A stretch of DNA of 64,000 nt, from the NCBI GenBank assembly GCA_000002435.2, contig CM018791.1. One strand, given 5' to 3'. Below the pieces are notes generated by a model, which was given only the letters and a program-made list of their open reading frames with translations, was not told the origin of the DNA and made no database searches. The first letter of the stretch is position 1; each line of letters starts with the position of its first letter. The translations under genes and the position numbers were made by a program. The stretch comes from Giardia intestinalis. Its lineage: Eukaryota. Of this stretch, positions 23,601 to 60,245 are shown piece by piece.

Positions 23601-25881
23601 GCACCCTTCTAGTCAGAGCACTCCGTATAGTATTAACACAAGCCTATACACAAGCGAAAGTAACCATAATATTCCCAGCACAGAGTCCTTAGATAAGCAT
23701 AAGGTTACCAGCGGACGACCGCAACCATCCATACCTATTCTGCTTACTTCTGGGAGCATTGCCGATAGACCCTCTTTCATACCTCGCTCTCAGGCCCCTC
23801 CGTCAGCGTCTGTGGGCCAGAGCCAATCGTCGTTGGATCCAGAACAAGTTGCTGACATGGCTCTTATCAAGTCTGTTTGCAACAAATTCAATGACATGGA
23901 AGAGCTATCTCGCCAAAAGGACGTACAAATTGATAGCTATGGAGACCTTCTTGTTAATCTTGAGGAGATGTTCAGAATTTCAAAGGAAGAAGCTGCGAGG
24001 ATTCAAGAAATTTACGACAAAAAGATTAGGTTTTTGGACAAGTTTTCCACCAAAAAGGCATTCATCATTGCACACGCTTTGCACACAGAGTTTCTCAAGA
24101 AGAAGTTCTCTCTCAACGGAGTAGAAGAGAAAGAAGAACTAAAGGACTTCCAGAACATGCTTTTAAGCTATCAGAGTGTAGTTGCAAAATATACAGATGA
24201 ACTGAAGACGTTTGAGGCCTCGTTACGAGACGATCTGTTTTCGTTGTCAAAATTTGAAGAGAAGTATAATGATTTGACAAATAACAAGTACATTGCAGCG
24301 CTTAAAGCGATGAATACAGAGCTTGCCCTAAAGCTTGGACAAGCAACGGAAGAGCTAGCCCAACTAACGAACCTATCCATGAACAATGCATTGTCTAATA
24401 CTAGCCCTGTTGCTGACCTGCATCGCTCAGGCCCCGAGGTTGATTCTCCAGATCTCTGCTTTGCAGCTAGTCGCATACCAGCTGCTGTCACAGAGACTGC
24501 CTTTAGTCATCTTCGCAACCCTACAAATCTTTCTCCATCTTCATCACAGACATCCCAGGTTCTTCAACCAGGTAGCCTAACAATAGACACTTTTATCAAG
24601 ACTCTTGTCATGAATAGTCAGCTCCTCACAAAACTGGAGGACACAATAAGCGAACTGGATAGATACAAAGCACATTCCGGGATAATTGATCCTATCAATA
24701 TGGAGTTGGCTACCTTGGCACTGGCGTCAACTGCTATGACCAGTACTAATCCAGAACATGCTCTCAAAAACTATGAAAGTAGTATCTTGCATGTCTTGCA
24801 ACTGCTGAAAAGTAGCGCCAATCATTATCTAGACCAAGATGCAGCGGCCATCATCATCAAAAACCTTGGGTTGGAAAATGTGGTTCTTCCATCAGTCGTC
24901 AAGTCTATTATAGATCAGCATCGTGACATCTTGCTTGAGTTGACTAGAGATGGTCCCGTTAATGCCACCTGTCCTGCGGCATCTCAGATAGCGAACATAG
25001 CTGCAACGCTTTTTGACGAGGACTCCATAGCTGCCATCTTACGGGAAAATAACATCGACAATACTGAGCGTAATCGATTTTTATACTTACGTTCTGTTGC
25101 GGCACAGCTGCTCTGTTCCGAAAACATTCTTTCCCATAGGCTTAATGCTTCACAGTTATATCTTCAAAACGTAGCCCAGTTCATGCAAAAATATGCCCCA
25201 ACCCTTGCCGGTGGGGTACTGGCAGATGCAGATAGCAGGGAGCGTATAGTAAGCATGGTTAGCGCAGATATTAATAAGCTCCGTACCAATTATGGATCTA
25301 AGCTTCTCAACACTCAATCAGCCGTGGCCCAACTGGTGAGGGAAAATGACTCGCTCAAAGCAGAGTTGCTTCACTATAAACAAATAGTTGGTAGTGCGCT
25401 GACCGACGCGACCCCTATAGCTTCCACTGTCCAACAGCTGAAGCAGCGTGATGCTCTCTTCTTTGAGCTTCTTGGTCTTTATGAAAAACTGCTTCGCGGG
25501 AACAACGGAGAAGAGGAACAGCTGAAATCTTATCTGAACGATATCACGCTCTTTAAGGCAGAACTTCAAAAGAGCACTATCAACTACGAACAGCTTGCAC
25601 GGGACCGTACAAATAGCGTAATCACAGACACTATACACAACTATTTACACGTTGTACAGTCGGAACTAGACGATAGAACAGAGCAGCTAGCGGTTATCAA
25701 AAATAACCTTATAACCGAGCGATCTAACACGGATCTGATTTGCGAACACTCCAGAGTCTTAGAGGACCGCATTGCAAGGTTGGAGGCAGAAAATTACAAC
25801 TTACGACTCTTATCGAAGGAAAGCTCTGTGCATGCAGACCTTTCGTCTCTTATGGCTAGTACGCCTCTGCTCAGCTACTAG
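20623..25881 (+). CDS. Giant coiled-coil protein with N-terminal HOOK/calponin-homology-like domain
   Basis: 1752 aa with ATG at 20623. The N-terminal ~150 aa (SELLTWLANSAGYASISDWSVMTDGVAVMRCIRKFWPI ... RRNWRVIEQCLKAV ... KKACYHFLVMMYF) follow the HOOK-domain/CH-fold pattern (LLTWL ... NWR/K ... NLK). About 900 aa of Ser/Thr-rich low complexity follow, then about 700 aa of coiled coil. AGTGAAC overlaps the TAG stop. Confidence 0.8.
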   Translation: MTAVQNLNSSNMTSVGKSELLTWLANSAGYASISDWSVMTDGVAVMRCIRKFWPITCRGIITGGFNWTITEEEEKRRNWRVIEQCLKAVTVPIEIFEFGKIAQGKKKACYHFLVMMYFIGAIHSGTAKNIAFAYPIEAPLKEFLQSERVVKVAQMDAQKRHHQRKPKCYSTTPSNLTMIDADECDDIFEPLNFSTKDLVNIFADTDFCTSPNTKTPNRHHPSGLVHLQLAGEKVKSVLSQNIAATAKTVREGEEYSAMSPCKSVSSSVSKPPISPEEHPDTVKSFKTRESSVTSLHGRESVTISEGSTCKHRSSQDESFRSCPQFITPSHSISEDREDIAKEEFQAVHPSPKKLSPPNSFAAIKAAATAAVLNASRGPMESSTSSVIHQLPEQVGIPSIQNHAIRRFIATSKPSLSGSPRPASEKTPLSRNDGSLRQVSARSRPSAFRTSTVTHSGCSAGISPSCSPSVSRYMRLNSPSTGVSRFHDNGAHYQESGLKINYLYDSKKEATSSISSICSSMNNSSAATLSLLQTDEKAQAYVEKVGTMLQQLNSKDANTIEVKTATSSKPPHMAGLALLSFSNSDASEGASDLQMGLDTGAANSSKEASTTVAPQRTSSANSNLRSSMLSHTPSKSSTADCFSCPSSEEISNEVNSTVSSMKPLGEQKSLADYERGSSVPKNLPRWPSKKVTKGISPIAPTDPSTSTTSFINQTHGLDVTNSLLNDTKLTLTSSNTVNVSNIVSMYSSDCPTSILSSGIQGSGISLVSSSNGSMAPTNTSMADVEKATQSVKYLGPSSEKPAETDLVYDLSSKPSMVNLLHSQFGAFPVAVDSSTSIPMVISSFSSTYSQPPPPAPNPRSLAINLQRVHQEVSLPSALPPAEQRELSSLKTSGDLINCGSPVIEHTQNLQSSTSFPDNISLSLNVGDASRYSGAYLTGSTKQCLPSSASDTFLFASSTSGLGLTGGTHSLFTDLQEAREGTANILKITNNMDEQHPSSQSTPYSINTSLYTSESNHNIPSTESLDKHKVTSGRPQPSIPILLTSGSIADRPSFIPRSQAPPSASVGQSQSSLDPEQVADMALIKSVCNKFNDMEELSRQKDVQIDSYGDLLVNLEEMFRISKEEAARIQEIYDKKIRFLDKFSTKKAFIIAHALHTEFLKKKFSLNGVEEKEELKDFQNMLLSYQSVVAKYTDELKTFEASLRDDLFSLSKFEEKYNDLTNNKYIAALKAMNTELALKLGQATEELAQLTNLSMNNALSNTSPVADLHRSGPEVDSPDLCFAASRIPAAVTETAFSHLRNPTNLSPSSSQTSQVLQPGSLTIDTFIKTLVMNSQLLTKLEDTISELDRYKAHSGIIDPINMELATLALASTAMTSTNPEHALKNYESSILHVLQLLKSSANHYLDQDAAAIIIKNLGLENVVLPSVVKSIIDQHRDILLELTRDGPVNATCPAASQIANIAATLFDEDSIAAILRENNIDNTERNRFLYLRSVAAQLLCSENILSHRLNASQLYLQNVAQFMQKYAPTLAGGVLADADSRERIVSMVSADINKLRTNYGSKLLNTQSAVAQLVRENDSLKAELLHYKQIVGSALTDATPIASTVQQLKQRDALFFELLGLYEKLLRGNNGEEEQLKSYLNDITLFKAELQKSTINYEQLARDRTNSVITDTIHNYLHVVQSELDDRTEQLAVIKNNLITERSNTDLICEHSRVLEDRIARLEAENYNLRLLSKESSVHADLSSLMASTPLLSY

Positions 25882-28049: not shown

Positions 28050-28185
28050 ACAACGTGCGGAACAAGCAGCTATGAGCCTTTAGGATTCAAAGCCACCCAG
28101 TTATGAATTATTATTCCAAATAATAAATGGGCGAATGGTCACCGGGATTTAAGGGGTGCCGCTAAAAGGCAAAATTTAGAATTTC

Positions 28186-28530
28186 ATGAGCTTCAAATGT
28201 GACAACCAGGTCGACTTCATGGTCTTGCAGCGTGAGAGAGAAGCGCGCGAAGAAAAATCCCGTGCAGAGTGGGAGGCTAAATTTGGTCGTCCATATACGG
28301 CCTCCTGTGTTGCGTCCTACAACTTAACCGACTACTGCAGAGAGCAGTTCGGGCTTCCAAAGAGGCAGCGATCTGGCGCTGAGGATGGACTCACAGTAAT
28401 TCCAGAGCCCTATAGACGGGCTGTCCGGCCAAAAACGGAGGGCGATGTTATCGGATTATATAGGGATGATTATGATCAAAAGCTGTTCAATCCGCACAAG
28501 TATGGAATTCGCCGCACGGTATTCGACTGA
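28186..28530 (+). CDS. Small hypothetical protein, member A of a tandem paralogous pair (unknown family)
   Basis: 114 aa with ATG at 28186. It shares the conserved skeleton W-E-x2-F-G-x2-Y-x2-S-C-x2-S-Y-x-L-x-D-x-C-R-x2-F-G-L-P-x-R ... I-P-E-P-Y-R-R ... I-G ... D-D with the adjacent ORF 28576..28920. No match to a family I recognise. Confidence 0.6.
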   Translation: MSFKCDNQVDFMVLQREREAREEKSRAEWEAKFGRPYTASCVASYNLTDYCREQFGLPKRQRSGAEDGLTVIPEPYRRAVRPKTEGDVIGLYRDDYDQKLFNPHKYGIRRTVFD

Positions 28531-28575
28531 TCTTTAGGTCAAAACACTCTCTGTGTCAGCTTCAATTTACATAAA

Positions 28576-28920
28576 ATGCCAGCGGACCCCATTGACGCCG
28601 TTTCTGAAATCGAGAATACGCGCAGGCGAGAAAAGCACATAGAGGACTTAGCCAGGAAGTGGGAACAGCGCTTTGGTTCTGAGTACGTTCAGTCATGCGC
28701 TGACAGCTACAGACTTAGAGACGAATGTAGGGTACACTTTGGCCTCCCAGAGCGCTCGGTTGTTCAAGAAAATTGGTCTATCGATAGAATTCCGGAGCCA
28801 TATCGCAGAACTGACCGTCTAGAACTAACCTCAGATACGATTGGGTACTTCCAGGACGACTTTGAAGGCCGGATCTTTCCTCGTAGAGAGCATGCGCCCA
28901 AACGCGTTCCATTCACTTGA
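28576..28920 (+). CDS. Small hypothetical protein, member B of the tandem paralogous pair
   Basis: 114 aa with ATG at 28576. It is about 40% identical to 28186..28530 over the C-terminal ~90 aa with the same length. The DNA is well diverged, so this is not a recent duplication or an assembly artefact. Confidence 0.6.
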   Translation: MPADPIDAVSEIENTRRREKHIEDLARKWEQRFGSEYVQSCADSYRLRDECRVHFGLPERSVVQENWSIDRIPEPYRRTDRLELTSDTIGYFQDDFEGRIFPRREHAPKRVPFT

Positions 28921-28933
28921 CCTCACTCTGTCG

Positions 28934-31900
28934 TCACTGCAGAATGCGACCAGAATTGCAGATCTCGTCACCGATGATCCCAACAAGGTCGCTGTTGTGA
29001 AGCTCTTCCAAGCTGATGTGAATGCGATACTTCCACTGCCACTCGCTTGCTCCGGGCATGTTTATTATCTCGTCCTTTGTGTCTCCGTTATATCTGTACT
29101 TGTCGCACGCCCCAAATATGTCCTGCAGCATCAGGCAGCATATGATGGACCTGGAGTGCAGATTCTGACGGAGGATAGCGCGACAGTCGAACTCAGAAAG
29201 TGAACGGGAAACTTGCCAATCGCTGTCTCCCGCACGGCCCAAGTTTTCTCTCCAGAATGCGCATGCAGCGGAACGATTATGCTCCCACCAAGCACGAAGT
29301 GGGTACGTGTCATGTGTCGATGGAGCAGCCACCGTAAGGTACGAGTAAACACTCTCGTCATCACAACGATAAAAGTGTCCAGGATAACCTTCGTGGGTCA
29401 TTCGTTGAACTCTGAGCCCGATGATTCCTAGGTCGGCCATGACCCGACGGATGCAGGGGTGCAAGTACCCAAGATCCTCTCCGCAAATCATCATGTTCGT
29501 GGACTCCTTTATGAGCCGCAGGTGCTTTGTGCCGCTTCTGGTCCACTCGTCGTTGTGCCAGGTAGTGAAGTACTCATAGCTCCAATGTCTTATCTTATCG
29601 CGGAGCCCGATATGCTCAAGGCTAGTAAGAGACACTGCCTCGCTGGACACATGTCTATTCGTGAATACAGGGTGGCAGAAAGCGTCTGGGTTGGAGACAT
29701 CGTTTAAAAGACAGACATTCCCTAGTAGCTTTCTATACGTTTCCATCAATGCAGAGTGCAATTCTAGTGCAATATCTTCATTAAGCAAGAGGCTATCTAG
29801 CAGCGCGCAGGCCTTTTGCTCTTGTAGCTCTATCACGTAAGAATCCGTTCGTTTGTCATAACTAAGTACTCCAAACTCAACGAGTGTTGAGCACGCCAAG
29901 TCGCCGGCTGCGTGACCAGCAAGTTTGTGCGCCAGATCACGCTTGAGGAGAGGCTGCGTAAGACGTGTACGTATGTCGCTCTTGCTGCGACACCACGAAA
30001 TACTTGAGTTGGGGTCATAGCACTCTTCAAATATCCAATCCCAGTGCAGAGGAGCTGCAGGAACAAACTGTCCCAGAGATCCATTATTCTTCCCTGCAGT
30101 AAGCGGCAATTCCCACGTGCGAAACAGCCCGAGAATATGATCCAGGCGCACGCAATCGAAGAACAGCTCTGCGTGCTTGAGGCGTCTCTGCATCCATTGA
30201 TACCCGTCAATCTCCTCCATCTTGCGCCAGTTGTATGCCGGATAGCCCCAGTTCTGACCCATTGGCGTAAATGCGTCGGGTGGCGCACCAACAACACGGC
30301 TCTTCTCAAAGTATTCTGGGTACACCCAGGAATCTACGCCGACCGGGGACGTGCCAAAGCTCAAGTCGCCCTTGAGACATATGCCTCTGGACCGGCAGTA
30401 CATAGCAGAGTCCTGTAACTGTGTGTGAGCATGCATCTGAAGAAAGGCATAAAAGAATATGTGCTTCGTAGTGCTCACTACTTCCTTGCCTATCTCCTTA
30501 GTTACTGTAGATGAAGGGGAGGCCCCAGAGGAGATCTTATCATACAGGGTCTTAATGTACAGGCAGCTATCGGTTGGTGTAAGTGCAGAGATGTTTGCTG
30601 GCTTTATTGCATCATAGAAACGCTTCAAAAGAGGATTTCTTGCAGACATGTCAGTGGATGGGTCCAGGAAACTCAACCCCTCAAAAACGTCGATAAAGTA
30701 GCGGTACAGCATGTAACTATATATCCAGTACTCGATTAGTGGGCTGCTCTGAATCCACGTGACAATATCCTTCACTAGTGTATGCAGGCCTGCGGTGTCA
30801 CAGATGTAAGAGTATATTAAATACAAAAAGTTCAGCTTTTCTCTGCACACCTTGCCATAGTTGTACCTACAGTGGAGATAAGATATGTCCCTCGTCATAT
30901 GGTGGCGGAAGTCATTAAGCTTCCGTGTTACTACACTATCCATTCCGGAGATCTTTTCGCACCTTATATAGATGGGATGAAGAGCAAAGACAGAAATGCC
31001 CGCATATGGTGAAGAATCCCCCGCCGAGAAATGGCTCTTAATCGTGTTGGTACCTGAGGGGGATAAGATTGGGCCGGTTATAGTGTCCTGAAGGGGAAGA
31101 AGCTGTATTATGTTGAACCCGCAGCACTTGGCGAAGTTGACAAGCATGCGCAGATCACCGAAGTCCCCAACACCAGTGGAGAGTGCAGAGCGGAGGCTGA
31201 AAAGAGGCACGCAGAGAGATGTGAACCGCGGTACTGCACTGTATGGATACCGGAAAAATCCGCAAATGAAGTACGACCAATACCTTATCGTCACAGTCTT
31301 GAGGTGGCTATTGCCCTTTTTAGCAGTAGAAGGGGCAGAACTAAGCAGCTTGACCTCACTACTATTGTTATTGTCTTCAACTTCTTGATCGTCCTTTTGA
31401 CCCGGAGAAGATGCTGTCGTGGTTGTAGATGTGGTCGCAGATGCGGCTGCGGCCGCATAAAGATCACCGACGGTCTTGTATGGAAGTGTCCTATGCACAG
31501 ACTCGTCGCCCAGGGTGTATGTAGCTGTCATCGAGAAAGTCTCAGATAGATGTATTGATCGGTTTTCTCCACTTTCGAAAGAGATGTTTCCATCTGCATG
31601 GACGATGGCAAACTTGAAAAGGAAGGTTTTTAGCTCGTCTACTGTAAAGTAGAAGACAGTTGGGGCTTCAAATCTACGCTCTCCCACATGGTTGAATATT
31701 ATGGAGCTCCTGGAGCGGGGGTTCCAGTTACCGAAACGGGGCAGATTACCAGTCAATAGTACGCGCTCGCCCTTGAAGACGTATGGCACCATGCATGCAA
31801 ACAACACGGGGACTAGGTTGGACTGAACGAGATTAGACCTACTCAGCTTTGCTATTGCCTTCTTATTCTCGACCTCCTTAACGACTTTACTTACCTTTAG

Positions 31901-32581
31901 AATCGCTAGCTTCTCAGGTGCCCCGTGGTGTATGGTGGCGTCCTTCAGTATCGATGTGGTTGCAGAGTCTGTCATGTCCAGGGAGTCATCAATCTTCCAA
32001 AAACATCTGTTGAAAAGCTTATTTAGTAGGTGTCCGCTATCTAGAACGCTTTTGTCCACCTTGAGGTCGTGACCAATCATGACCTTCATCGCAGAGGTAT
32101 TCCAAGGGCTGCTGGAACTGAAGCTCCAGTCATCCACCAGGGTAAAGCTCACGTCAAGGACATTTCCGCTGTTGTTGACAAGTGACTCATACTGAGGATG
32201 CAACACTAAGGCTGAGATGCATTGATCATAGATTGATTGAGTGGGGGGAATGTTCGGTAGAATACGCTTCAGCACATCGGGGGACTGAGACCCATCTTCA
32301 TTGATGACGGCATACCTGTACGCTCGCATATCCTCTGTGTCTGCACGATCTTCTGAAAGCCTCTCCAAGGTGTCTGTAATATCCAGGTCTAGCTCCCACA
32401 GAGGCCCGTTTCTACGCATAAAAACCATTGGTTCCTTTGCAAAGGAAGACAGGAGAGCTAGGCGCTGTGTGGGGTGCGCCACGTAGTTGTCTACCACGAA
32501 GCGGATATTGACCCTGAGTGCGTGATCCATTGTTTTTCTTCCAGCTTTGTAGAGTAGCTGTAGTGGAAAAATAAATGACAT
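28934..32581 (-). CDS. 4-alpha-glucanotransferase (disproportionating enzyme, GH77) of the DPE2 type with two N-terminal CBM20 starch-binding domains
   Basis: 1215 aa with a verified ATG (a second in-frame Met at residue 18). The three GH77 catalytic regions are present: CVRLDHILGLFRTWELP (nucleophile Asp), MMICGEDLGYL (acid/base Glu) and VAAPSTHDTYP (Asp), plus GQNWGYPAYNW. The N-terminal CBM20-like modules include GERVLLTGNLPRFGNWNP ... GNISFESGENRSIHL, which resembles plant DPE2 CBM20-2. Confidence 0.9.
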   Translation of the reverse strand: MSFIFPLQLLYKAGRKTMDHALRVNIRFVVDNYVAHPTQRLALLSSFAKEPMVFMRRNGPLWELDLDITDTLERLSEDRADTEDMRAYRYAVINEDGSQSPDVLKRILPNIPPTQSIYDQCISALVLHPQYESLVNNSGNVLDVSFTLVDDWSFSSSSPWNTSAMKVMIGHDLKVDKSVLDSGHLLNKLFNRCFWKIDDSLDMTDSATTSILKDATIHHGAPEKLAILKVSKVVKEVENKKAIAKLSRSNLVQSNLVPVLFACMVPYVFKGERVLLTGNLPRFGNWNPRSRSSIIFNHVGERRFEAPTVFYFTVDELKTFLFKFAIVHADGNISFESGENRSIHLSETFSMTATYTLGDESVHRTLPYKTVGDLYAAAAASATTSTTTTASSPGQKDDQEVEDNNNSSEVKLLSSAPSTAKKGNSHLKTVTIRYWSYFICGFFRYPYSAVPRFTSLCVPLFSLRSALSTGVGDFGDLRMLVNFAKCCGFNIIQLLPLQDTITGPILSPSGTNTIKSHFSAGDSSPYAGISVFALHPIYIRCEKISGMDSVVTRKLNDFRHHMTRDISYLHCRYNYGKVCREKLNFLYLIYSYICDTAGLHTLVKDIVTWIQSSPLIEYWIYSYMLYRYFIDVFEGLSFLDPSTDMSARNPLLKRFYDAIKPANISALTPTDSCLYIKTLYDKISSGASPSSTVTKEIGKEVVSTTKHIFFYAFLQMHAHTQLQDSAMYCRSRGICLKGDLSFGTSPVGVDSWVYPEYFEKSRVVGAPPDAFTPMGQNWGYPAYNWRKMEEIDGYQWMQRRLKHAELFFDCVRLDHILGLFRTWELPLTAGKNNGSLGQFVPAAPLHWDWIFEECYDPNSSISWCRSKSDIRTRLTQPLLKRDLAHKLAGHAAGDLACSTLVEFGVLSYDKRTDSYVIELQEQKACALLDSLLLNEDIALELHSALMETYRKLLGNVCLLNDVSNPDAFCHPVFTNRHVSSEAVSLTSLEHIGLRDKIRHWSYEYFTTWHNDEWTRSGTKHLRLIKESTNMMICGEDLGYLHPCIRRVMADLGIIGLRVQRMTHEGYPGHFYRCDDESVYSYLTVAAPSTHDTYPLRAWWEHNRSAACAFWRENLGRAGDSDWQVSRSLSEFDCRAILRQNLHSRSIICCLMLQDIFGACDKYRYNGDTKDEIINMPGASEWQWKYRIHISLEELHNSDLVGIIGDEICNSGRILQ

Positions 32582-56262: not shown

Positions 56263-56955
56263 ATGAGCAGGCAACTTGGGGATTTACTCGAAAACATAAA
56301 GGCGGCAGTATTCGACTTTGACGGGACTCTGGTCGATTCGCATAAGATATGGGCAAAAATAGATCAGGATCTTTTCGATCAACTGGGTCTAGTACAGCCC
56401 CCGAACTACGAAAAGGACATTGCTGGAAAGCGTCTACCAGAGATAGCTAAGTATATTATTGAGCACTTCCAGTTGACGAATGTGAGCCAGGAGAGAATTC
56501 TGAGCTGCTGGGAGGAAAGCTATATGAAGTACTTTTCCAGCTCAGCACAATTCATAGATGGCGCTGCCGAGTTTCTTACGTACTTGGCATCCAAAAACAT
56601 TGCCATCGGGATTGCCACTGCTTCCACACACAAACTAGTAGAGCTGTTTTTCTCCAACCATCCTGAAATACGTGCACTGATAAGTTGCGTAGTCACATCA
56701 GAAGACGTTGTGCACTCTAAGCCAGCTCCAGATGTTTTCCTGAAGTGTCTAGAGAGCCTAGGTGCTCATCCCAGCGAGGGGATCATTTTTGAAGACTCTC
56801 TTGTGGGTCTTTCTGCAGCTACCAAGACAGGAAGCAAGGTGGTTTGTATTCTTTCCCACCCTGATGACCATTTAGAAAAGAAAGAGCTGAGCCAGTTGCA
56901 AATTAACTCTTATTCTGAGTATCTGTATCAATCTCGTACACTGGAGGAAAGCTGA
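56263..56955 (+). CDS. HAD-superfamily hydrolase (subfamily IA, beta-phosphoglucomutase/phosphatase-like)
   Basis: The track start at 56251 is TTG, and the first ATG is at 56263. Motif I is AAVFDFDGTLVDS (DxDGT). Motif II-III-like residues are present, and the metal-binding region is IFEDSLVGLSAATKTGSKVV. 230 aa. Confidence 0.8.
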   Translation: MSRQLGDLLENIKAAVFDFDGTLVDSHKIWAKIDQDLFDQLGLVQPPNYEKDIAGKRLPEIAKYIIEHFQLTNVSQERILSCWEESYMKYFSSSAQFIDGAAEFLTYLASKNIAIGIATASTHKLVELFFSNHPEIRALISCVVTSEDVVHSKPAPDVFLKCLESLGAHPSEGIIFEDSLVGLSAATKTGSKVVCILSHPDDHLEKKELSQLQINSYSEYLYQSRTLEES

Positions 56956-57121
56956 AGCAATCTTCTGGGCAAATCTGCATACACTGTAAGCATTGGAAAC
57001 ACTTGTGAGGGTCACGGAGAGAGATCTTGTTATTCTGGATGACGAGAATAGATAATGGGCAGGCTTGTACACACTGACCACAAAGGGTGCATGCATCAAC
57101 ATCCAAGATAATCCGCTGCAT
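56903..57121 (-). CDS. 2[4Fe-4S] ferredoxin (clostridial-type, two CxxCxxCxxxCP motifs)
   Basis: 72 aa with a verified ATG at 57121..57119. The sequence MQRIILDVDACTLCGQCVQACPLSILVIQNNKISLRDPHKCFQCLQCMQICPEDCF contains two canonical C-x2-C-x2-C-x3-C-P cluster-binding motifs 19 residues apart. An AT-rich block (aaatttaaaagaaaaag in gene sense) lies just upstream of the ATG. The 3' end overlaps the convergent HAD gene by 53 nt. Confidence 0.7.
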   Translation of the reverse strand: MQRIILDVDACTLCGQCVQACPLSILVIQNNKISLRDPHKCFQCLQCMQICPEDCFSFPPVYEIDTDTQNKS

Positions 57122-57747
57122 AGTTCACAGAAAGAATTGGCTTTTTCTTTTAAATTTCTGGGAGCTGGTTTGTCAGCTGTTGTTCGAGTAAACTTATCAG
57201 GCAAGTCGTCGTGCTGAGTGGGATTCTCTCTCAGTCCATCTATCCAAAGTTCAAAATTCAAATTTCATCCAGTTTTGGGAAGAGGAGGAGCTAGTTGGCT
57301 CGTGAGCATGTCGATAGAGACGACTCGAAGCGGGATCCGGCAGACACTTGGCGGGATGATGGTACTGCAGGCGAAGAGAGCCCTCGCGCTCGCCACCCCA
57401 ATCGATCTCCCTACTAAAGAGCAAGCATGTGGCTGACTCCTAAAACGGCTGCCGCTATCACTGAACCCTCTCCCCAGCTGGGCTAGTCGTCAAATGGGAA
57501 GTGGCTCATGAACGCATCACCTCGCCTTTGGGGGCCCGATTCACCTCTACTGTATCGTCCATGGCGCTAAGATTTATGGAAGACACGCCTGCTCCAACAT
57601 CCCCAGGACGCTGAGAGAGATCAGAAGGCCTTCCAAGTCCTCTGGAGGCGTTTAGATGCAACTCCTAGCTCTTGCTCTCGGGAGACCTCGATAGGGATCA
57701 GCAACCAACACGTAGACTGCGACCTATGTAATCAAGACCTGGAACAG

Positions 57748-58167
57748 ATGGCCTTCGTTATCGACAAGACAAGAACAGGTGATGGAGCTCCGTTCTCCCC
57801 GGATCCTGTGCTCCAGAGGAGGCAGGGCTTCCAGTCACTGACTGCCCCGACAGGAGTCATGCGTCTGCTGATGCTTTGTGAGGACCGCATGGACTCCGAC
57901 TCGTGCCTATACACTGTGGATGCTGTGGGTCTCTCGAGGGAGATGCTCCGACGCCATAACAAGAACAGAAGCCTCAGGTGCACATGTGAGAGCTTGACAC
58001 GGGATATAGAGCTGATTCAGGCCTCATCTAAGAACCTGGGGGCGTTTCACACGCTGGAGGATACCAGGATTGGGGGAATCCCCATCGTCTGTTGCCCCAA
58101 ATGCTTCAGCACCAGAATGGCGAGTAGGAGACATCTGGCTAAAACGAAACACTCTGTGCTGATGTGA
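57748..58167 (+). CDS. Possible small hypothetical protein (139 aa) with C-terminal Cys/His cluster; may be part of a decayed element
   Basis: ATG at 57748. The protein-like composition ends in IVCCPKCFSTRMASRRHLAKTKH. It lies at the edge of the GC-rich island and is followed by frame-hopping ORFs. No AT-rich initiator upstream. Low confidence. Confidence 0.2.
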   Translation: MAFVIDKTRTGDGAPFSPDPVLQRRQGFQSLTAPTGVMRLLMLCEDRMDSDSCLYTVDAVGLSREMLRRHNKNRSLRCTCESLTRDIELIQASSKNLGAFHTLEDTRIGGIPIVCCPKCFSTRMASRRHLAKTKHSVLM

Positions 58168-58379
58168 CACCAGATGACAATCACTCAAGCATGAACAGGA
58201 CGAGCATCTGCCCGCTCTGTACAAAACCCACTGGAGCCAGAGCTATCCGAATGTACTGTGGCACAGACAGCAAGTGCAGGGTGCTACTGCGCGAAAGGAT
58301 GGAGATGGCAGAGGAGATGCACCTCGTCACACTACGGGCCACTACATGGGCAACACCCACCAGAAGGTTCCGAACAAGA

Positions 58380-59880
58380 ATAGGCCACCGAGCGCATGAA
58401 GGACCCCCTGGCGAAGAGCAGCTGCCGCCCCATGGGGCTCCTCTCCCACGGGCCCCCTCGACCCGGACTCCTCAGAGGGGATCAGGGTAGCGTACGAGCT
58501 GCACCCTGGAGGGACACGAGCCCCCTGTCCTACAGCCAGCGGAGAGCACGGGCATCTCTCCCAAGGTCACTGACGACGAGATGACCCGGGGGTCCGTCCA
58601 TGGGCTCTCGAGGTCTCCTGGACCTTACCTGGACCTGCGTACTGGGGGTCCTCATCCCCAAGAACGAGGCAAGCATAACCTGTGGAGCGACCACGACGGC
58701 CCTTTACAGATACTACCGGGCCATCTGAAGTCCCAGGCGCTGGACACTGGGGCTTGCATGCACGTGTAGTGTGCGCTCGTATGTGCACACGAGACTGAGG
58801 AAGCCAGGCGGTCTTGCTCGACTCCAAGGCGCCCTCAACAGCAGCCCCGGTCCTGCACAGTCTCGGCCAGGAGAACGCGCCCCTCGCCCTGAGGAGCTAC
58901 ACGTGGCCTTCCTCTGGCTACAGCACACATGGACTCGGTCCCGTGCAGTGTTCCTCAGGGACCCTCTAGGTATGTTCCTATGCTGCGCTGGACGGAGCGC
59001 GCTCACTAAACAGCTGAAGGAGATGCCCCCTCAGTGCCTACGCCGACGGCGTACTGATCCTTCACGACGACAACAACGAGGTAATGAGGTTGACAAACCC
59101 ACGGACTGACGATCAACACAGACAACTCAAGAGCACCGAGGGGGCAGGAGGCTCCTTCCTGGGTGTCCGGTCTCGAGGAGCGGCTACCCACGGCCTCCAA
59201 GGAGATAGAGAGGGCAACGAAAAGGTTGCAACTGTGTCAATCGCCCACCACCCCGAGCCGAGCTGGTCTGGACAGACTCACCACGCGACCCCTACGGATC
59301 CCTCGGGGGGCAGGCAGAGCCCTCTGGGATGCTCGGCTCGAACAACAGCAGACCGAGCTCCTGGCTACGCAGGACAGCGGCGGTCGGGAGTCCACCACAA
59401 GCAGCTGCGCGGTGCTTGACACCTCGACGTGAGACGTGGCATCACAGCAGGCTGCCGAGCGGGACGGCCTCGTGGTGAGCAACGCATCGTACATGAACTG
59501 TGCTCTGATCGCTCCAATACTTCAGATAACGCCTCTCGGAGAGCTGTGACCGGGCCAGCCTCTCCGGCTGAACGACTCATGGCTCCACGTACACTCTGCG
59601 GCACGGATGGGTGCAGACCACACCAGCCGAGCCGGCACACTGCACAGGGTGTGGACCTGCGAGTGTGTACTGGCTGCTGACCACCTGGCACCACAGGTGC
59701 ACTGCGGTCCATGAACAGAAGGGCGGGCCGGGCGTTTCCTCCGCGCCAACCAGGGGTCGATATGGAGGCTACGGGTACACGCTACAGTCCAGGAGGACGC
59801 ATGGCGAGCGCACCCCGACAACAGGATCGATGGTCCACTCCACGAGGAGGCGAGAAGGAACCCGAGTCGGCATCCCGGGA
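58380..59880. other. GC-rich (about 60-70% GC) compositional island without a coherent ORF; all six frames are open in short overlapping pieces
   Basis: Counted GC per 60-nt block is 57-70% between 58380 and 59880, against about 45-52% in flanking and coding DNA. Ten or more 60-200-aa ORFs overlap in all frames and are Arg/Pro/Ser/Cys-rich. It lies in a 3.1-kb stretch (57122..60245) with no convincing gene. Confidence 0.6.
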
Positions 59881-60245
59881 TTATAATACATGCGATCTTC
59901 GTTATGGAGCGCCAGCACCGAGTGGCCCTGGGTTGTACGGCCGGGAGCACTATTCCTAAGGTCAGATAGCAGCTGATCCAAGGGGACTGAGTGAGAGAAG
60001 CGAAAAACCTAGATCGATATCGTGAGAGACGGGACGGTGACTTGCAAAGCGAAGAACTATGATATTTCCCCTTTTCTGCCAGAGCTGGACAGTGTCCGAA
60101 TTTCCGATTCCAAATGCTGGACACACTGAGCGAGGATGCCGTTCAACATAGTGACTCGTACGATGGACTTACTCAGACTGCGGCCAGCAAACCAACTTCT
60201 TTTTGAAGAGAAACGACAGATTTATTCATGAGACTACAGAGCAGT

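What the first reader, a model, noticed from the sequence alone, without database searches (positions are those of the whole stretch)
28186..28920. Tandem pair of diverged 114-aa paralogues of an unrecognised family
Two adjacent same-strand ORFs of identical length, each with its own ATG and a 45-bp spacer, share a conserved skeleton: WE..FG..Y..SC..SY.L.D.CR..FGLP.R........IPEPYRR ... IG...DD. Protein identity is about 40% but DNA identity is low. This is therefore an old tandem duplication maintained under selection, not an assembly duplication. There are two invariant Cys and an invariant IPEPYRR, but no motif I can place in a known family. Small conserved tandem families in this genome type are often lineage-specific and unstudied.
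Basis: seen in the sequence. Interest (0 to 1): 0.7.

Follow-up and report, generated by a model that had tools for sequence, protein, structure and literature searches.

The report
Giardia pair of CIMIP1-like ciliary proteins
The two small neighbouring genes are real, old, selected duplicates. They are not an orphan family: they are distant Giardia relatives of CIMIP1, a small protein that lines the inside of the microtubules of cilia and flagella.

Summary
Two 114-aa ORFs sit at 28186..28530 and 28576..28920 on the + strand, 45 bp apart. They are 39% identical over 98 aa (E 3e-23), and DNA identity is only 44%. They are Giardia intestinalis WB genes GL50803_8980 and GL50803_8979, both annotated 'hypothetical protein'. 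Both are transcribed and under strong purifying selection (pN 0.07-0.11 against pS 0.78-0.85 between assemblages). The duplication predates the G. intestinalis/G. muris split.

The family is not confined to Giardia. It also occurs in Hexamita, Spironucleus and uncultured relatives, and profile methods link it to CIMIP1 (C20orf85/LLC1, PF14945):
- hhalign gives 91% probability (P 1e-6, 87 colinear columns), against a best of 19 for 100 shuffled controls versus 41.8 for the real alignment.
- Pfam LLC1 hits the Hexamita member at E 2e-4.
- The only PDB hits are CIMIP1 and the related SPMIP1.

Both of those are small proteins inside the B-tubule of axonemal doublets. The most likely function is therefore a luminal microtubule inner protein of Giardia's flagella. 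That function is inferred, not shown. The 'invariant' Cys pair and IPEPYRR are Giardia-only features. I class this as a new, remote member of a known kind, of moderate interest.

The parts
28186..28530 (+). Gene A = GL50803_8980 (XP_037901825.1, UniProt D3KFZ7), 114 aa, CIMIP1-like small protein
   Evidence: ORF. Exact-sequence look-up. Transcribed. Orthologue pN 0.073 against pS 0.85.
28576..28920 (+). Gene B = GL50803_8979 (XP_001709886.1, UniProt A8B228), 114 aa, CIMIP1-like small protein. This copy keeps more of the ancestral sequence features (MP..P.D.V start, LTSD.IG, LFP).
   Evidence: ORF. Exact look-up. Transcribed. Has values in protein columns of PMC8866875 Table_11. Orthologue pN 0.109 against pS 0.78.
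28531..28575 (+). 45-bp spacer. Its last 20 bp are 75% A+T (CAATTTACATAAA just before the ATG). This is the likely short Giardia-type initiator/promoter of gene B.
   Evidence: Sequence; A+T count. That it acts as a promoter is inferred from the known compact A/T-rich promoters of Giardia, not tested. The spacer is not conserved in length or sequence in another assemblage (82 bp in L001).
28166..28185 (+). A/T-rich 20 bp (75% A+T, AAAATTTAGAATTTC) directly upstream of the ATG of gene A. Likely initiator/promoter.
   Evidence: Inferred, not tested.
28207..28314 (+). Gene A residues 8-43: predicted N-terminal helix carrying W29, G34 and Y37. It aligns with the N-terminal helix of CIMIP1 (E.EAR..W...WG).
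   Evidence: AF2 helices 8-33 and 35-43, compared with 8-41 in true CIMIP1. hhalign columns.
28597..28704 (+). Gene B residues 8-43: the same N-terminal helix region.
   Evidence: Alignment with A and with CIMIP1.
28438..28455 (+). Gene A residues 85-90, E-G-D-V-I-G. This is the position of the SNYG-like glycine motif (T-Q-G-F-I-G in CIMIP1). A is degenerate at the first two positions.
   Evidence: hhalign register. D87 and G90 are invariant across the family. Motif definition from PMC10973386.
28828..28845 (+). Gene B residues 85-90, T-S-D-T-I-G. This SNYG-like motif matches [ST]-N-x-x-[ILVY]-G except that N is replaced by S.

Best explanation
GL50803_8980 and GL50803_8979 are two anciently duplicated Giardia members of a small-protein family found in several diplomonad genera. 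That family is a remote relative of CIMIP1 (C20orf85/LLC1) and of the related SPMIP1 (ATP6V1FNB). These are small, largely unfolded proteins that sit in the lumen of the B-tubule of axonemal doublet microtubules.

By analogy, each Giardia protein would lay its N-terminal amphipathic helix (residues about 8-43, with W29/G34/Y37) along the inner surface of B-tubule protofilaments. An extended linker would follow. A glycine motif ([T/E]-x-D-x-I-G-[L/Y/W], a diverged 'SNYG' motif) would then dock at a tubulin-tubulin interface, followed by a short helix. The proteins would repeat with the axonemal period and help stabilise the wall of Giardia's eight flagella.

Shown here: the genes are real, expressed and constrained, the duplication is old, and there is statistical homology to CIMIP1/SPMIP1. 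Inferred: the location in the B-tubule lumen, the binding mode and the stabilising role. The two copies may fill two different sites or two different sets of microtubules, but that is speculation.
For: Family breadth:
- An exhaustive HMM search finds relatives only in Giardia, G. muris, Hexamita inflata, Spironucleus salmonicida and three uncultured sources.

Link to CIMIP1:
- Pfam LLC1 (PF14945) hits the Hexamita member at E 2.3e-4, protein residues 8-98 on profile positions 5-87 of 119.
- hhalign of the family against CIMIP1 sequences gives 69.8%. With 88 CIMIP1 sequences it gives 91%, P 1.1e-6, 87 colinear columns.
- The non-Giardia subset gives 92.9%, P 3.7e-7.
- Controls: the reversed alignment scores 15.5 and the best of 100 column shuffles scores 19.1, against 41.8 for the real alignment.
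- A CIMIP1 HMM built from amniotes plus sea urchin scores all five non-Giardia members above all 2400 shuffled sequences.
- A profile of the non-Giardia members searched against the whole PDB returns only three chains: CIMIP1 twice (E 0.008, 0.009) and sea-urchin SPMIP1 (E 0.013), all doublet-microtubule proteins.

Architecture:
- AF2 secondary structure is alike in the two families. Giardia A has helices 8-33/35-43 and 49-54, then extended chain, then short helices after the I-G motif. True CIMIP1 has helices 8-41 and 48-53, then extended chain, then short helices after I-G-W. Both models have low pLDDT, as expected for proteins that fold only on the tubulin lattice.
- CIMIP1 and SPMIP1 are B-tubule proteins with 48-nm periodicity at protofilaments B07-B08 and B07-B10 (table in PMC11834534). 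They are classed as SNYG-module proteins (PMC10973386).

Expression:
- Both genes are transcribed and change together in two studies.
- 8979 has protein-level entries.
Against: - The Giardia proteins themselves hit nothing in Pfam or the PDB. The Giardia-only profile reaches only 15% hhalign probability. The link therefore runs through the other diplomonad members.
- The Pfam hit is below the gathering score (22.2 against 27.3 bits).
- The strongest signal lies in one charged helix of about 35 residues. The conserved CIMIP1 C-terminus (SCKGA...W-P) has no counterpart.
- Whether the family is closer to CIMIP1 or to SPMIP1 is unresolved.
- Copy A lacks the first two positions of the SNYG motif.
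- There is no localisation data. Neither gene was found in the held supplements of a cytoskeleton/ventral-disc proteome and two whole-cell proteomes.
- No solved Giardia axoneme structure was found in the PDB copy or in the paper library.
Confidence: 0.62

Rival explanations
1. The proteins are luminal or surface microtubule-binding proteins, but of Giardia-specific singlet arrays (ventral disc, median body, funis) rather than of flagellar doublets, or in addition to them. One paralogue could have been recruited to such an array after the duplication.
For: The homology to tubulin-lattice binders is the same as above. Three luminal densities of ventral-disc microtubules (gMIP5, 7, 8) had no assigned protein according to bioRxiv 10.1101/361105. 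The duplication is Giardia-specific and old. The Cys41/Cys51 pair appears only in Giardia. The median body protein gene is down-regulated together with both genes on host-cell contact.
Against: The family also exists as a single copy in Hexamita and Spironucleus, which have no ventral disc. G. muris has a disc but shows only one copy at this locus. Neither gene number appears in the disc-proteome paper text or supplements that I could search.
Confidence: 0.12
2. The resemblance to CIMIP1/SPMIP1 is convergent or compositional, resting on a charged amphipathic helix followed by a W...G turn. On this view the family is a diplomonad-specific small protein of unrelated function.
For: There are no direct hits for the Giardia sequences. 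The Pfam hit is below its gathering score. PDB E-values are only about 0.01. Most of the score comes from about 35 residues. The AF2 models are of low confidence and Foldseek finds nothing.
Against: Column-shuffled and reversed controls never exceed a score of 19.1, against 41.8 for the real alignment. The alignment is colinear over 87 columns and ends on the shared I-G motif, with matching spacing: W to G is 61 residues in Giardia and 63 in bovine CIMIP1. Out of 177,635 distinct PDB sequences the only three hits are two related doublet-lumen proteins. Protein sizes match (114-121 against 132-137 aa).
Confidence: 0.2
3. The family is the diplomonad orthologue of SPMIP1 (ATP6V1FNB) rather than of CIMIP1, or descends from the common ancestor of both. 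The kind of function would be the same (B-tubule lumen), but the site would differ (B07-B10).
For: Hexamita's best PDB hit by phmmer is sea-urchin SPMIP1 (E 0.18). The profile hit to SPMIP1 (E 0.013) is nearly as good as that to CIMIP1. Against N-terminal fragments, sea-urchin SPMIP1 scores higher than sea-urchin CIMIP1. PMC10973386 groups both proteins in one SNYG subfamily.
Against: The only Pfam family hit is LLC1, and it covers nearly the whole protein. hhalign to CIMIP1 runs on through the linker to the I-G motif. SPMIP1 is 177-188 aa, much longer than 114-121 aa. I could not build an SPMIP1 family profile, so this comparison is incomplete.
Confidence: 0.25

Closest known systems
[quoted passage not shown] PDB chains 8otz_P, 9fqr, 9v10_Ea, 8snb_1f.
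   Same: Both are small stand-alone proteins. Both have an N-terminal helix of about 35 residues with E.EAR..W...[WY]G, a short second helix, and a long extended linker containing L-P and a proline-rich patch. A T-x-x-x-I-G-[aromatic] motif sits about 62 residues after the conserved W. The profile match is colinear.
   Different: Identity in the aligned columns is only about 23-25%. The Giardia proteins are 114 aa against 132-137 aa. They lack the conserved C-terminal SCKGA...W-P segment. In Giardia the W after I-G is replaced by L or Y, although W is kept in Hexamita and Spironucleus. They have a Giardia-only Cys pair and occur as two tandem paralogues. They do not reach the Pfam gathering score.
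SPMIP1 (ATP6V1FNB). PDB chain 8snb_1i (sea-urchin sperm doublet).
   Same: The N-terminal helix motif Q.F....I.KE...R..W..KY..E[FY] closely resembles that of Hexamita and Spironucleus members. It is also a B-tubule luminal protein with 48-nm periodicity and belongs to the same SNYG class.
   Different: SPMIP1 is much longer (188 aa). Similarity was detected only over the first 57 residues or so. No SPMIP1 family profile was compared.
SNYG-module microtubule inner proteins in general (PIERCE1/2, CFAP90, CFAP144/FAM183A, FAP85, FAP182), as defined in PMC10973386.
   Same: They share a short motif ending in an invariant glycine that docks at a tubulin interface, followed by a short helix. All are small, mostly disordered proteins. 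PIERCE1 and PIERCE2 are likewise a pair of small paralogous inner proteins.
   Different: The canonical asparagine of [ST]-N-x-x-[ILVY]-G is absent: S in copy B, G in copy A, Q in CIMIP1 itself. No sequence-level hit to these other families was obtained.

Membership tests
CIMIP1 / LLC1 (Pfam PF14945) | Scores at or above the Pfam gathering threshold (27.3 bits) | tested here: not met
   The window proteins hit no Pfam family even at E 10. The best family member, Hexamita P0011, scores 22.2 bits at E 2.3e-4; P0015 scores E 0.062.
CIMIP1 / LLC1 (Pfam PF14945) | Statistically supported, colinear homology of the family profile to CIMIP1 sequences | tested here: met
   hhalign gives 91% probability, P 1.1e-6, 87 columns. 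Reversed and 100 shuffled controls score at most 19.1 against 41.8. CIMIP1 is the top PDB hit at E 0.008.
CIMIP1 / LLC1 (Pfam PF14945) | N-terminal long helix with conserved W...E.EA[R]..W...WG | tested here: met
   W29 and G34 are invariant in the diplomonad family. They align to W37 and G42 of bovine CIMIP1. Predicted helices span 8-43 against 8-41.
CIMIP1 / LLC1 (Pfam PF14945) | T-T-Q-G-F-I-G-W motif at the right distance from the helix | tested here: inconclusive
   I/V-G is kept, with G90 invariant, and the spacing is 61 against 63 residues. T85 is present in B but is E in A. W is present in Hexamita and Spironucleus but is L or Y in Giardia.
CIMIP1 / LLC1 (Pfam PF14945) | Conserved C-terminal segment L-E....S-C-K-G-A....L.W-P | tested here: not met
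   The hhalign alignment stops at the I-G motif. The diplomonad C-terminus (D-D..D..L-F-P...H....F-D) has no detected match.
CIMIP1 / LLC1 (Pfam PF14945) | Located in the lumen of the B-tubule of axonemal doublets (B07-B08, 48 nm) | not testable with these tools
   The location is known for sea-urchin CIMIP1 (table in PMC11834534). No Giardia doublet structure or localisation data were found.
SNYG-module proteins (PMC10973386) | Motif [ST]-N-x-x-[ILVY]-G | tested here: inconclusive
   B has T-S-D-T-I-G, with only the N missing. A has E-G-D-V-I-G, with the first two positions missing. CIMIP1 itself has T-Q-G-F-I-G.
SNYG-module proteins (PMC10973386) | Short alpha-helix just C-terminal of the motif | tested here: inconclusive
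   AF2 predicts helices 96-100 and 103-106 in A, but with pLDDT below 50. True CIMIP1 shows 108-113 and 124-129, also at low pLDDT.
SPMIP1 / ATP6V1FNB | Sequence homology to SPMIP1 | tested here: inconclusive
   Only the N-terminal 57 residues or so match: E 0.013 with the profile and E 0.18 with Hexamita alone. hhalign against the fragment ranges from 13 to 76%. No full family profile was available.

The most novel reading that the evidence does not exclude
After the Giardia-specific duplication, one of the two copies left the flagellar doublets. It became one of the still unassigned luminal proteins (gMIPs) of the hyperstable singlet microtubules of the ventral disc or median body. That would make it a ciliary inner protein reused to build the parasite's attachment organelle.
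Probability: 0.08. Interest if true: 0.7.

Novelty: new member of a known kind. Interest (0 to 1): 0.4.

Why it matters
Two Giardia 'hypothetical proteins' gain a testable assignment as candidate microtubule inner proteins. I found no solved structure of the Giardia axoneme and no assigned identities for its luminal proteins. If the homology holds, the CIMIP1/SPMIP1 group also reaches into Metamonada. The chains matched in the PDB come only from animal cilia and sperm, so this would argue that this class of B-tubule lining protein is very old. The practical gain is modest. It gives two short tagging or knock-down targets for work on flagellar stability in a parasite whose motility and attachment depend on unusually long, stable axonemes.

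Tried and rejected
- Direct Pfam scan of both proteins at E 10: nothing.
- Direct phmmer of both proteins against the PDB: only chance-level hits (adhesin, xylosidase, ArfGAP-like). I rejected these as non-colinear and with E above 0.1.
- AF2 model of copy A: pLDDT 51. Foldseek against the PDB gave no hit below E 7. This is uninformative, as expected for a protein that folds only on a lattice.
- Text searches for the gene identifiers: only one paper mentions 8980 in its text, in an RNA-seq table.
- Three proteome supplements (cytoskeleton/ventral disc, encystation, whole-cell shotgun): neither gene found. The stored files may be truncated, so this is weak negative evidence.
- Giardia polyadenylation consensus AGTRAAY within 60 nt downstream of either stop codon: not found.
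- dN/dS between the paralogues: dS is saturated, so the ratio (about 0.3) is unreliable. I used orthologue comparisons instead.
- Idea that the Cys pair marks a metal or disulphide site that defines the family: rejected, because the cysteines are absent outside Giardia.
- Idea that the ORFs are exons or fragments of a larger gene: rejected, because stand-alone orthologues of the same length exist.
- Rfam and tRNA scans of the window: nothing.
- Expression comparison with axonemal genes in PMC8866875: the pattern matches PACRG but not enkurin, radial-spoke or docking-complex genes. This is anecdotal and I did not use it as evidence.

Full report
**1. The observation**

The window carries two ATG-initiated ORFs of 114 aa on the + strand, at 28186..28530 and 28576..28920. 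A 45-bp spacer separates them.
- BLASTP aligns them without gaps at 38/98 identities (39%), E 3e-23.
- Full-length identity is 35%, with 40 identical columns. These include W29, F33-G34, Y37, S40-C41, C51-R52, F55-G56-L57-P58, I72-P-E-P-Y-R-R78, I89-G90 and D94-D95.
- DNA identity is 44% overall and 36% at third positions.
- tblastn finds no third copy in the window.

The description is accurate, and the similarity is far beyond chance.

**2. Identity of the genes**

An exact-sequence look-up shows that copy A is GL50803_8980 (XP_037901825.1, UniProt D3KFZ7). Copy B is GL50803_8979 (XP_001709886.1, A8B228). Both belong to Giardia intestinalis WB clone C6 and both are annotated 'hypothetical protein'.

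The surrounding genes fit Giardia:
- a 723-aa ankyrin-repeat protein on the minus strand upstream;
- a 1215-aa minus-strand ORF (28934..32581) convergent with B, whose orthologue in L001 carries CBM20 and GH77 (glucanotransferase-type) domains. Its stop codon lies 13 bp from that of B.

**3. Real, expressed, constrained genes**

The tandem pair is kept between the same neighbours in contigs of another assemblage (L001-L003).

Against those orthologues:
- Copy A has pN 0.073 and pS 0.85.
- Copy B has pN 0.109 and pS 0.78.

Synonymous sites are saturated while the proteins stay 87% and 78% identical. That is strong purifying selection. Between the two paralogues dS is saturated, so their dN/dS of about 0.3 is not reliable.

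Both genes appear in the differential-expression tables of two independent RNA-seq studies:
- In PMC7461913 both fall on contact with Caco-2 cells. 8980 has log2FC -1.9 to -2.2 and 8979 has -1.06 to -1.26.
- In PMC8866875 both rise in the same four of six metronidazole-line comparisons.

In Table_11 of the second study, 8979 carries values in three protein columns, whereas 8980 is NA in all protein columns. I read this as protein-level detection of B only. That reading rests on the table's coding and is an inference. Three other proteome supplements did not list either gene.

Each gene is preceded by 20 bp of 75% A+T. This fits Giardia's short promoters, though I did not test it.

**4. Age of the duplication**

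A G. muris-type contig (L004) has a single family member between a kinase gene and the GH77 gene.
- That protein is 53.5% identical to A and 39% to B.
- In a neighbour-joining tree rooted with Hexamita and Spironucleus it groups with A (94.5% bootstrap). The Giardia clade as a whole has 87% support.

Copy B shares more states with the outgroups than A does: the MP..P.D.V start, L-T-S-D, and L-F-P. The duplication therefore predates the G. intestinalis/G. muris split. At this locus G. muris lacks a B-type gene, and the exhaustive profile search found no second G. muris-like cluster. I could not scan the whole G. muris genome directly.

**5. The family is wider than Giardia**

A word-index search found only Giardia sequences. 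An exhaustive HMM search of 1.84 billion representatives found eight clusters. Named members are:
- G. muris GMRT_12579;
- a Hexamita inflata protein (119 aa);
- Spironucleus salmonicida SS50377_13378 (119 aa).

Three clusters come from uncultured sources. One of these lies on a compact eukaryotic contig next to a kinase and a tubulin-tyrosine-ligase gene.

Across all members the invariant residues are W29, G34, Y37, R52, P73, D87, G90 and F101. Cys41, Cys51 and most of IPEPYRR are Giardia-only.

**6. Link to a known family**

Several independent weak signals point to the same place.
- **(a) Pfam.** LLC1 (PF14945) hits the Hexamita member at E 2.3e-4 over residues 8-98, profile positions 5-87 of 119. 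A second member hits at E 0.062. No other Pfam family appears.
- **(b) PDB, 14-sequence family profile.** The only hit is 8otz_P, 'C20orf85 homolog', at E 0.84.
- **(c) PDB, profile of the five non-Giardia members.** It returns exactly three chains out of 177,635 distinct sequences. They are CIMIP1 from 9v10 (E 0.008), CIMIP1 from 8otz (E 0.009) and sea-urchin ATP6V1FNB/SPMIP1 from 8snb (E 0.013).
- **(d) Profile-profile comparison.**
  - I recovered the bovine and 9v10 CIMIP1 chain sequences from PDB alignments and collected 120 amniote CIMIP1 sequences, all carrying PF14945.
  - hhalign of the diplomonad family against 14 CIMIP1 sequences gives 69.8%.
  - Against 88 sequences it gives 91%, P 1.1e-6, over 87 colinear columns.
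  - The non-Giardia subset gives 92.9%, P 3.7e-7.
  - The Giardia-only subset gives 15%.
- **(e) Controls.** The reversed CIMIP1 alignment scores 15.5. The best of 100 column-shuffled alignments scores 19.1. The real score is 41.8.
- **(f) Reverse direction.** A CIMIP1 HMM scores all five non-Giardia members (8.3-17.2 bits) above all 2400 shuffled sequences (maximum 7.1). The Giardia sequences do not stand out.

The link is therefore transitive: Giardia to other diplomonads at E 1e-8 to 1e-15, and those to CIMIP1.

The aligned features are:
- the N-terminal helix (E.EAR..W...[WY]G);
- an L-P in the linker;
- a proline patch;
- the T-x-x-x-I-G motif. The W-to-G spacing is 61 residues in Giardia and 63 in bovine CIMIP1.

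**7. What CIMIP1 is**

According to PMC10973386, C20orf85 belongs to a class of microtubule inner proteins with an 'SNYG module'. This is a motif [ST]-N-x-x-[ILVY]-G that docks at the alpha/beta-tubulin interface on the luminal surface, followed by a short helix that binds the neighbouring beta-tubulin. SPMIP1, CFAP90, CFAP144 and PIERCE1/2 are in the same class.

The table in PMC11834534 lists sea-urchin CIMIP1 in the B-tubule, with 48-nm periodicity, at protofilaments B07-B08, with residues 11-68 built. It lists SPMIP1 in the B-tubule at B07-B10.

AF2 predicts the same layout for Giardia A and for true CIMIP1, both at low confidence. Both have a helix from residue 8 to about 41-43, a short helix around 48-54, a long extended stretch, and short helices after the I-G motif. 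Foldseek with the Giardia model found nothing, as expected for such a protein.

**8. Most likely mechanism**

The two proteins are most likely luminal inner proteins of the B-tubule of Giardia's flagellar doublets. They would bind through the N-terminal helix and the glycine motif and contribute to wall stability.

This is inference from homology. No localisation data, structure or phenotype exists, and I found no Giardia axoneme structure in the PDB copy or the paper library.

Why two copies are kept is unknown. Possibilities are two distinct sites in the repeat, or different microtubule arrays.

**9. Limits and rivals**

- The Giardia proteins fail the Pfam gathering score.
- They lack the CIMIP1 C-terminal segment.
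- Copy A has a degenerate SNYG motif.
- On N-terminal fragments alone the family matches bovine CIMIP1 (81-88%) and sea-urchin SPMIP1 (13-76%) better than sea-urchin CIMIP1 (3-4%). Orthology to CIMIP1 as opposed to SPMIP1 or their common ancestor is therefore unresolved.
- A purely convergent helix cannot be excluded. It is made unlikely by the controls, the colinearity and the specificity of the PDB hits.
- Use in Giardia-specific singlet arrays remains possible, since the ventral-disc luminal densities were unassigned according to bioRxiv 10.1101/361105. However, single-copy members in disc-less diplomonads argue that the ancestral role is flagellar.

**10. Verdict**

The reading as an old, selected duplication is supported. 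The reading as an orphan family is not.

These are new, remote and previously unannotated members of a known kind, the CIMIP1/SPMIP1-type microtubule inner proteins. Interest is moderate: the result extends that group to Metamonada and names two candidate inner proteins for the Giardia axoneme, but function rests on remote homology only.

Noticed in passing
window 58001-60000 (wider: 56955-59522): G+C rises to 61% against 44-50% in the rest of the window. This stretch has no ORF of 200 aa or more, only overlapping 100-140 aa ORFs in several frames. No tandem repeat, tRNA or Rfam match was found.
   Followed up: partly
window 28920-28934 and 25878-25881: Convergent gene ends are extremely tight. 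Gene B and the GH77/CBM20 gene end 13 bp apart. The 1752-aa ORF (+) and the ankyrin-repeat ORF (-) overlap by 4 bp, and the same overlap is seen in another assemblage.
   Followed up: no
window 28306-28308, 28336-28338 (A) and 28696-28698, 28726-28728 (B): codons 41 and 51: The two cysteines, ten residues apart, are invariant in all Giardia members including G. muris. In Hexamita, Spironucleus and the uncultured members they are replaced by F/W/L and A/T. They are a Giardia-specific acquisition of unknown meaning.
   Followed up: partly
window 28186-28920 versus L001 4571-5342: The two copies evolve at different rates between assemblages. A is 87% identical (pN 0.073) and B is 78% (pN 0.109). 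The spacer is unconserved, 45 bp here and 82 bp in L001.
   Followed up: partly
L004 2667-3011 (G. muris-type contig): There is a single family member next to the GH77 gene. A protein kinase gene sits where G. intestinalis has the ankyrin-repeat gene and copy A. No B-type copy is present in the 7-kb locus.
   Followed up: partly
PMC8866875 Table_11 (genes GL50803_8979, GL50803_8980, GL50803_15455): Across six RNA comparisons both genes show the pattern 0,+,0,+,+,+. PACRG, a known B-tubule junction protein, shows the same pattern. Enkurin, radial-spoke and docking-complex genes do not. This is anecdotal and not tested statistically.
   Followed up: partly
L001 4541-4918; P0004: Automatic gene calls in other assemblies extend copy A to 125 aa from an upstream TTG and copy B to 123 aa. 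The extensions are not conserved and look like calling artefacts.
   Followed up: no
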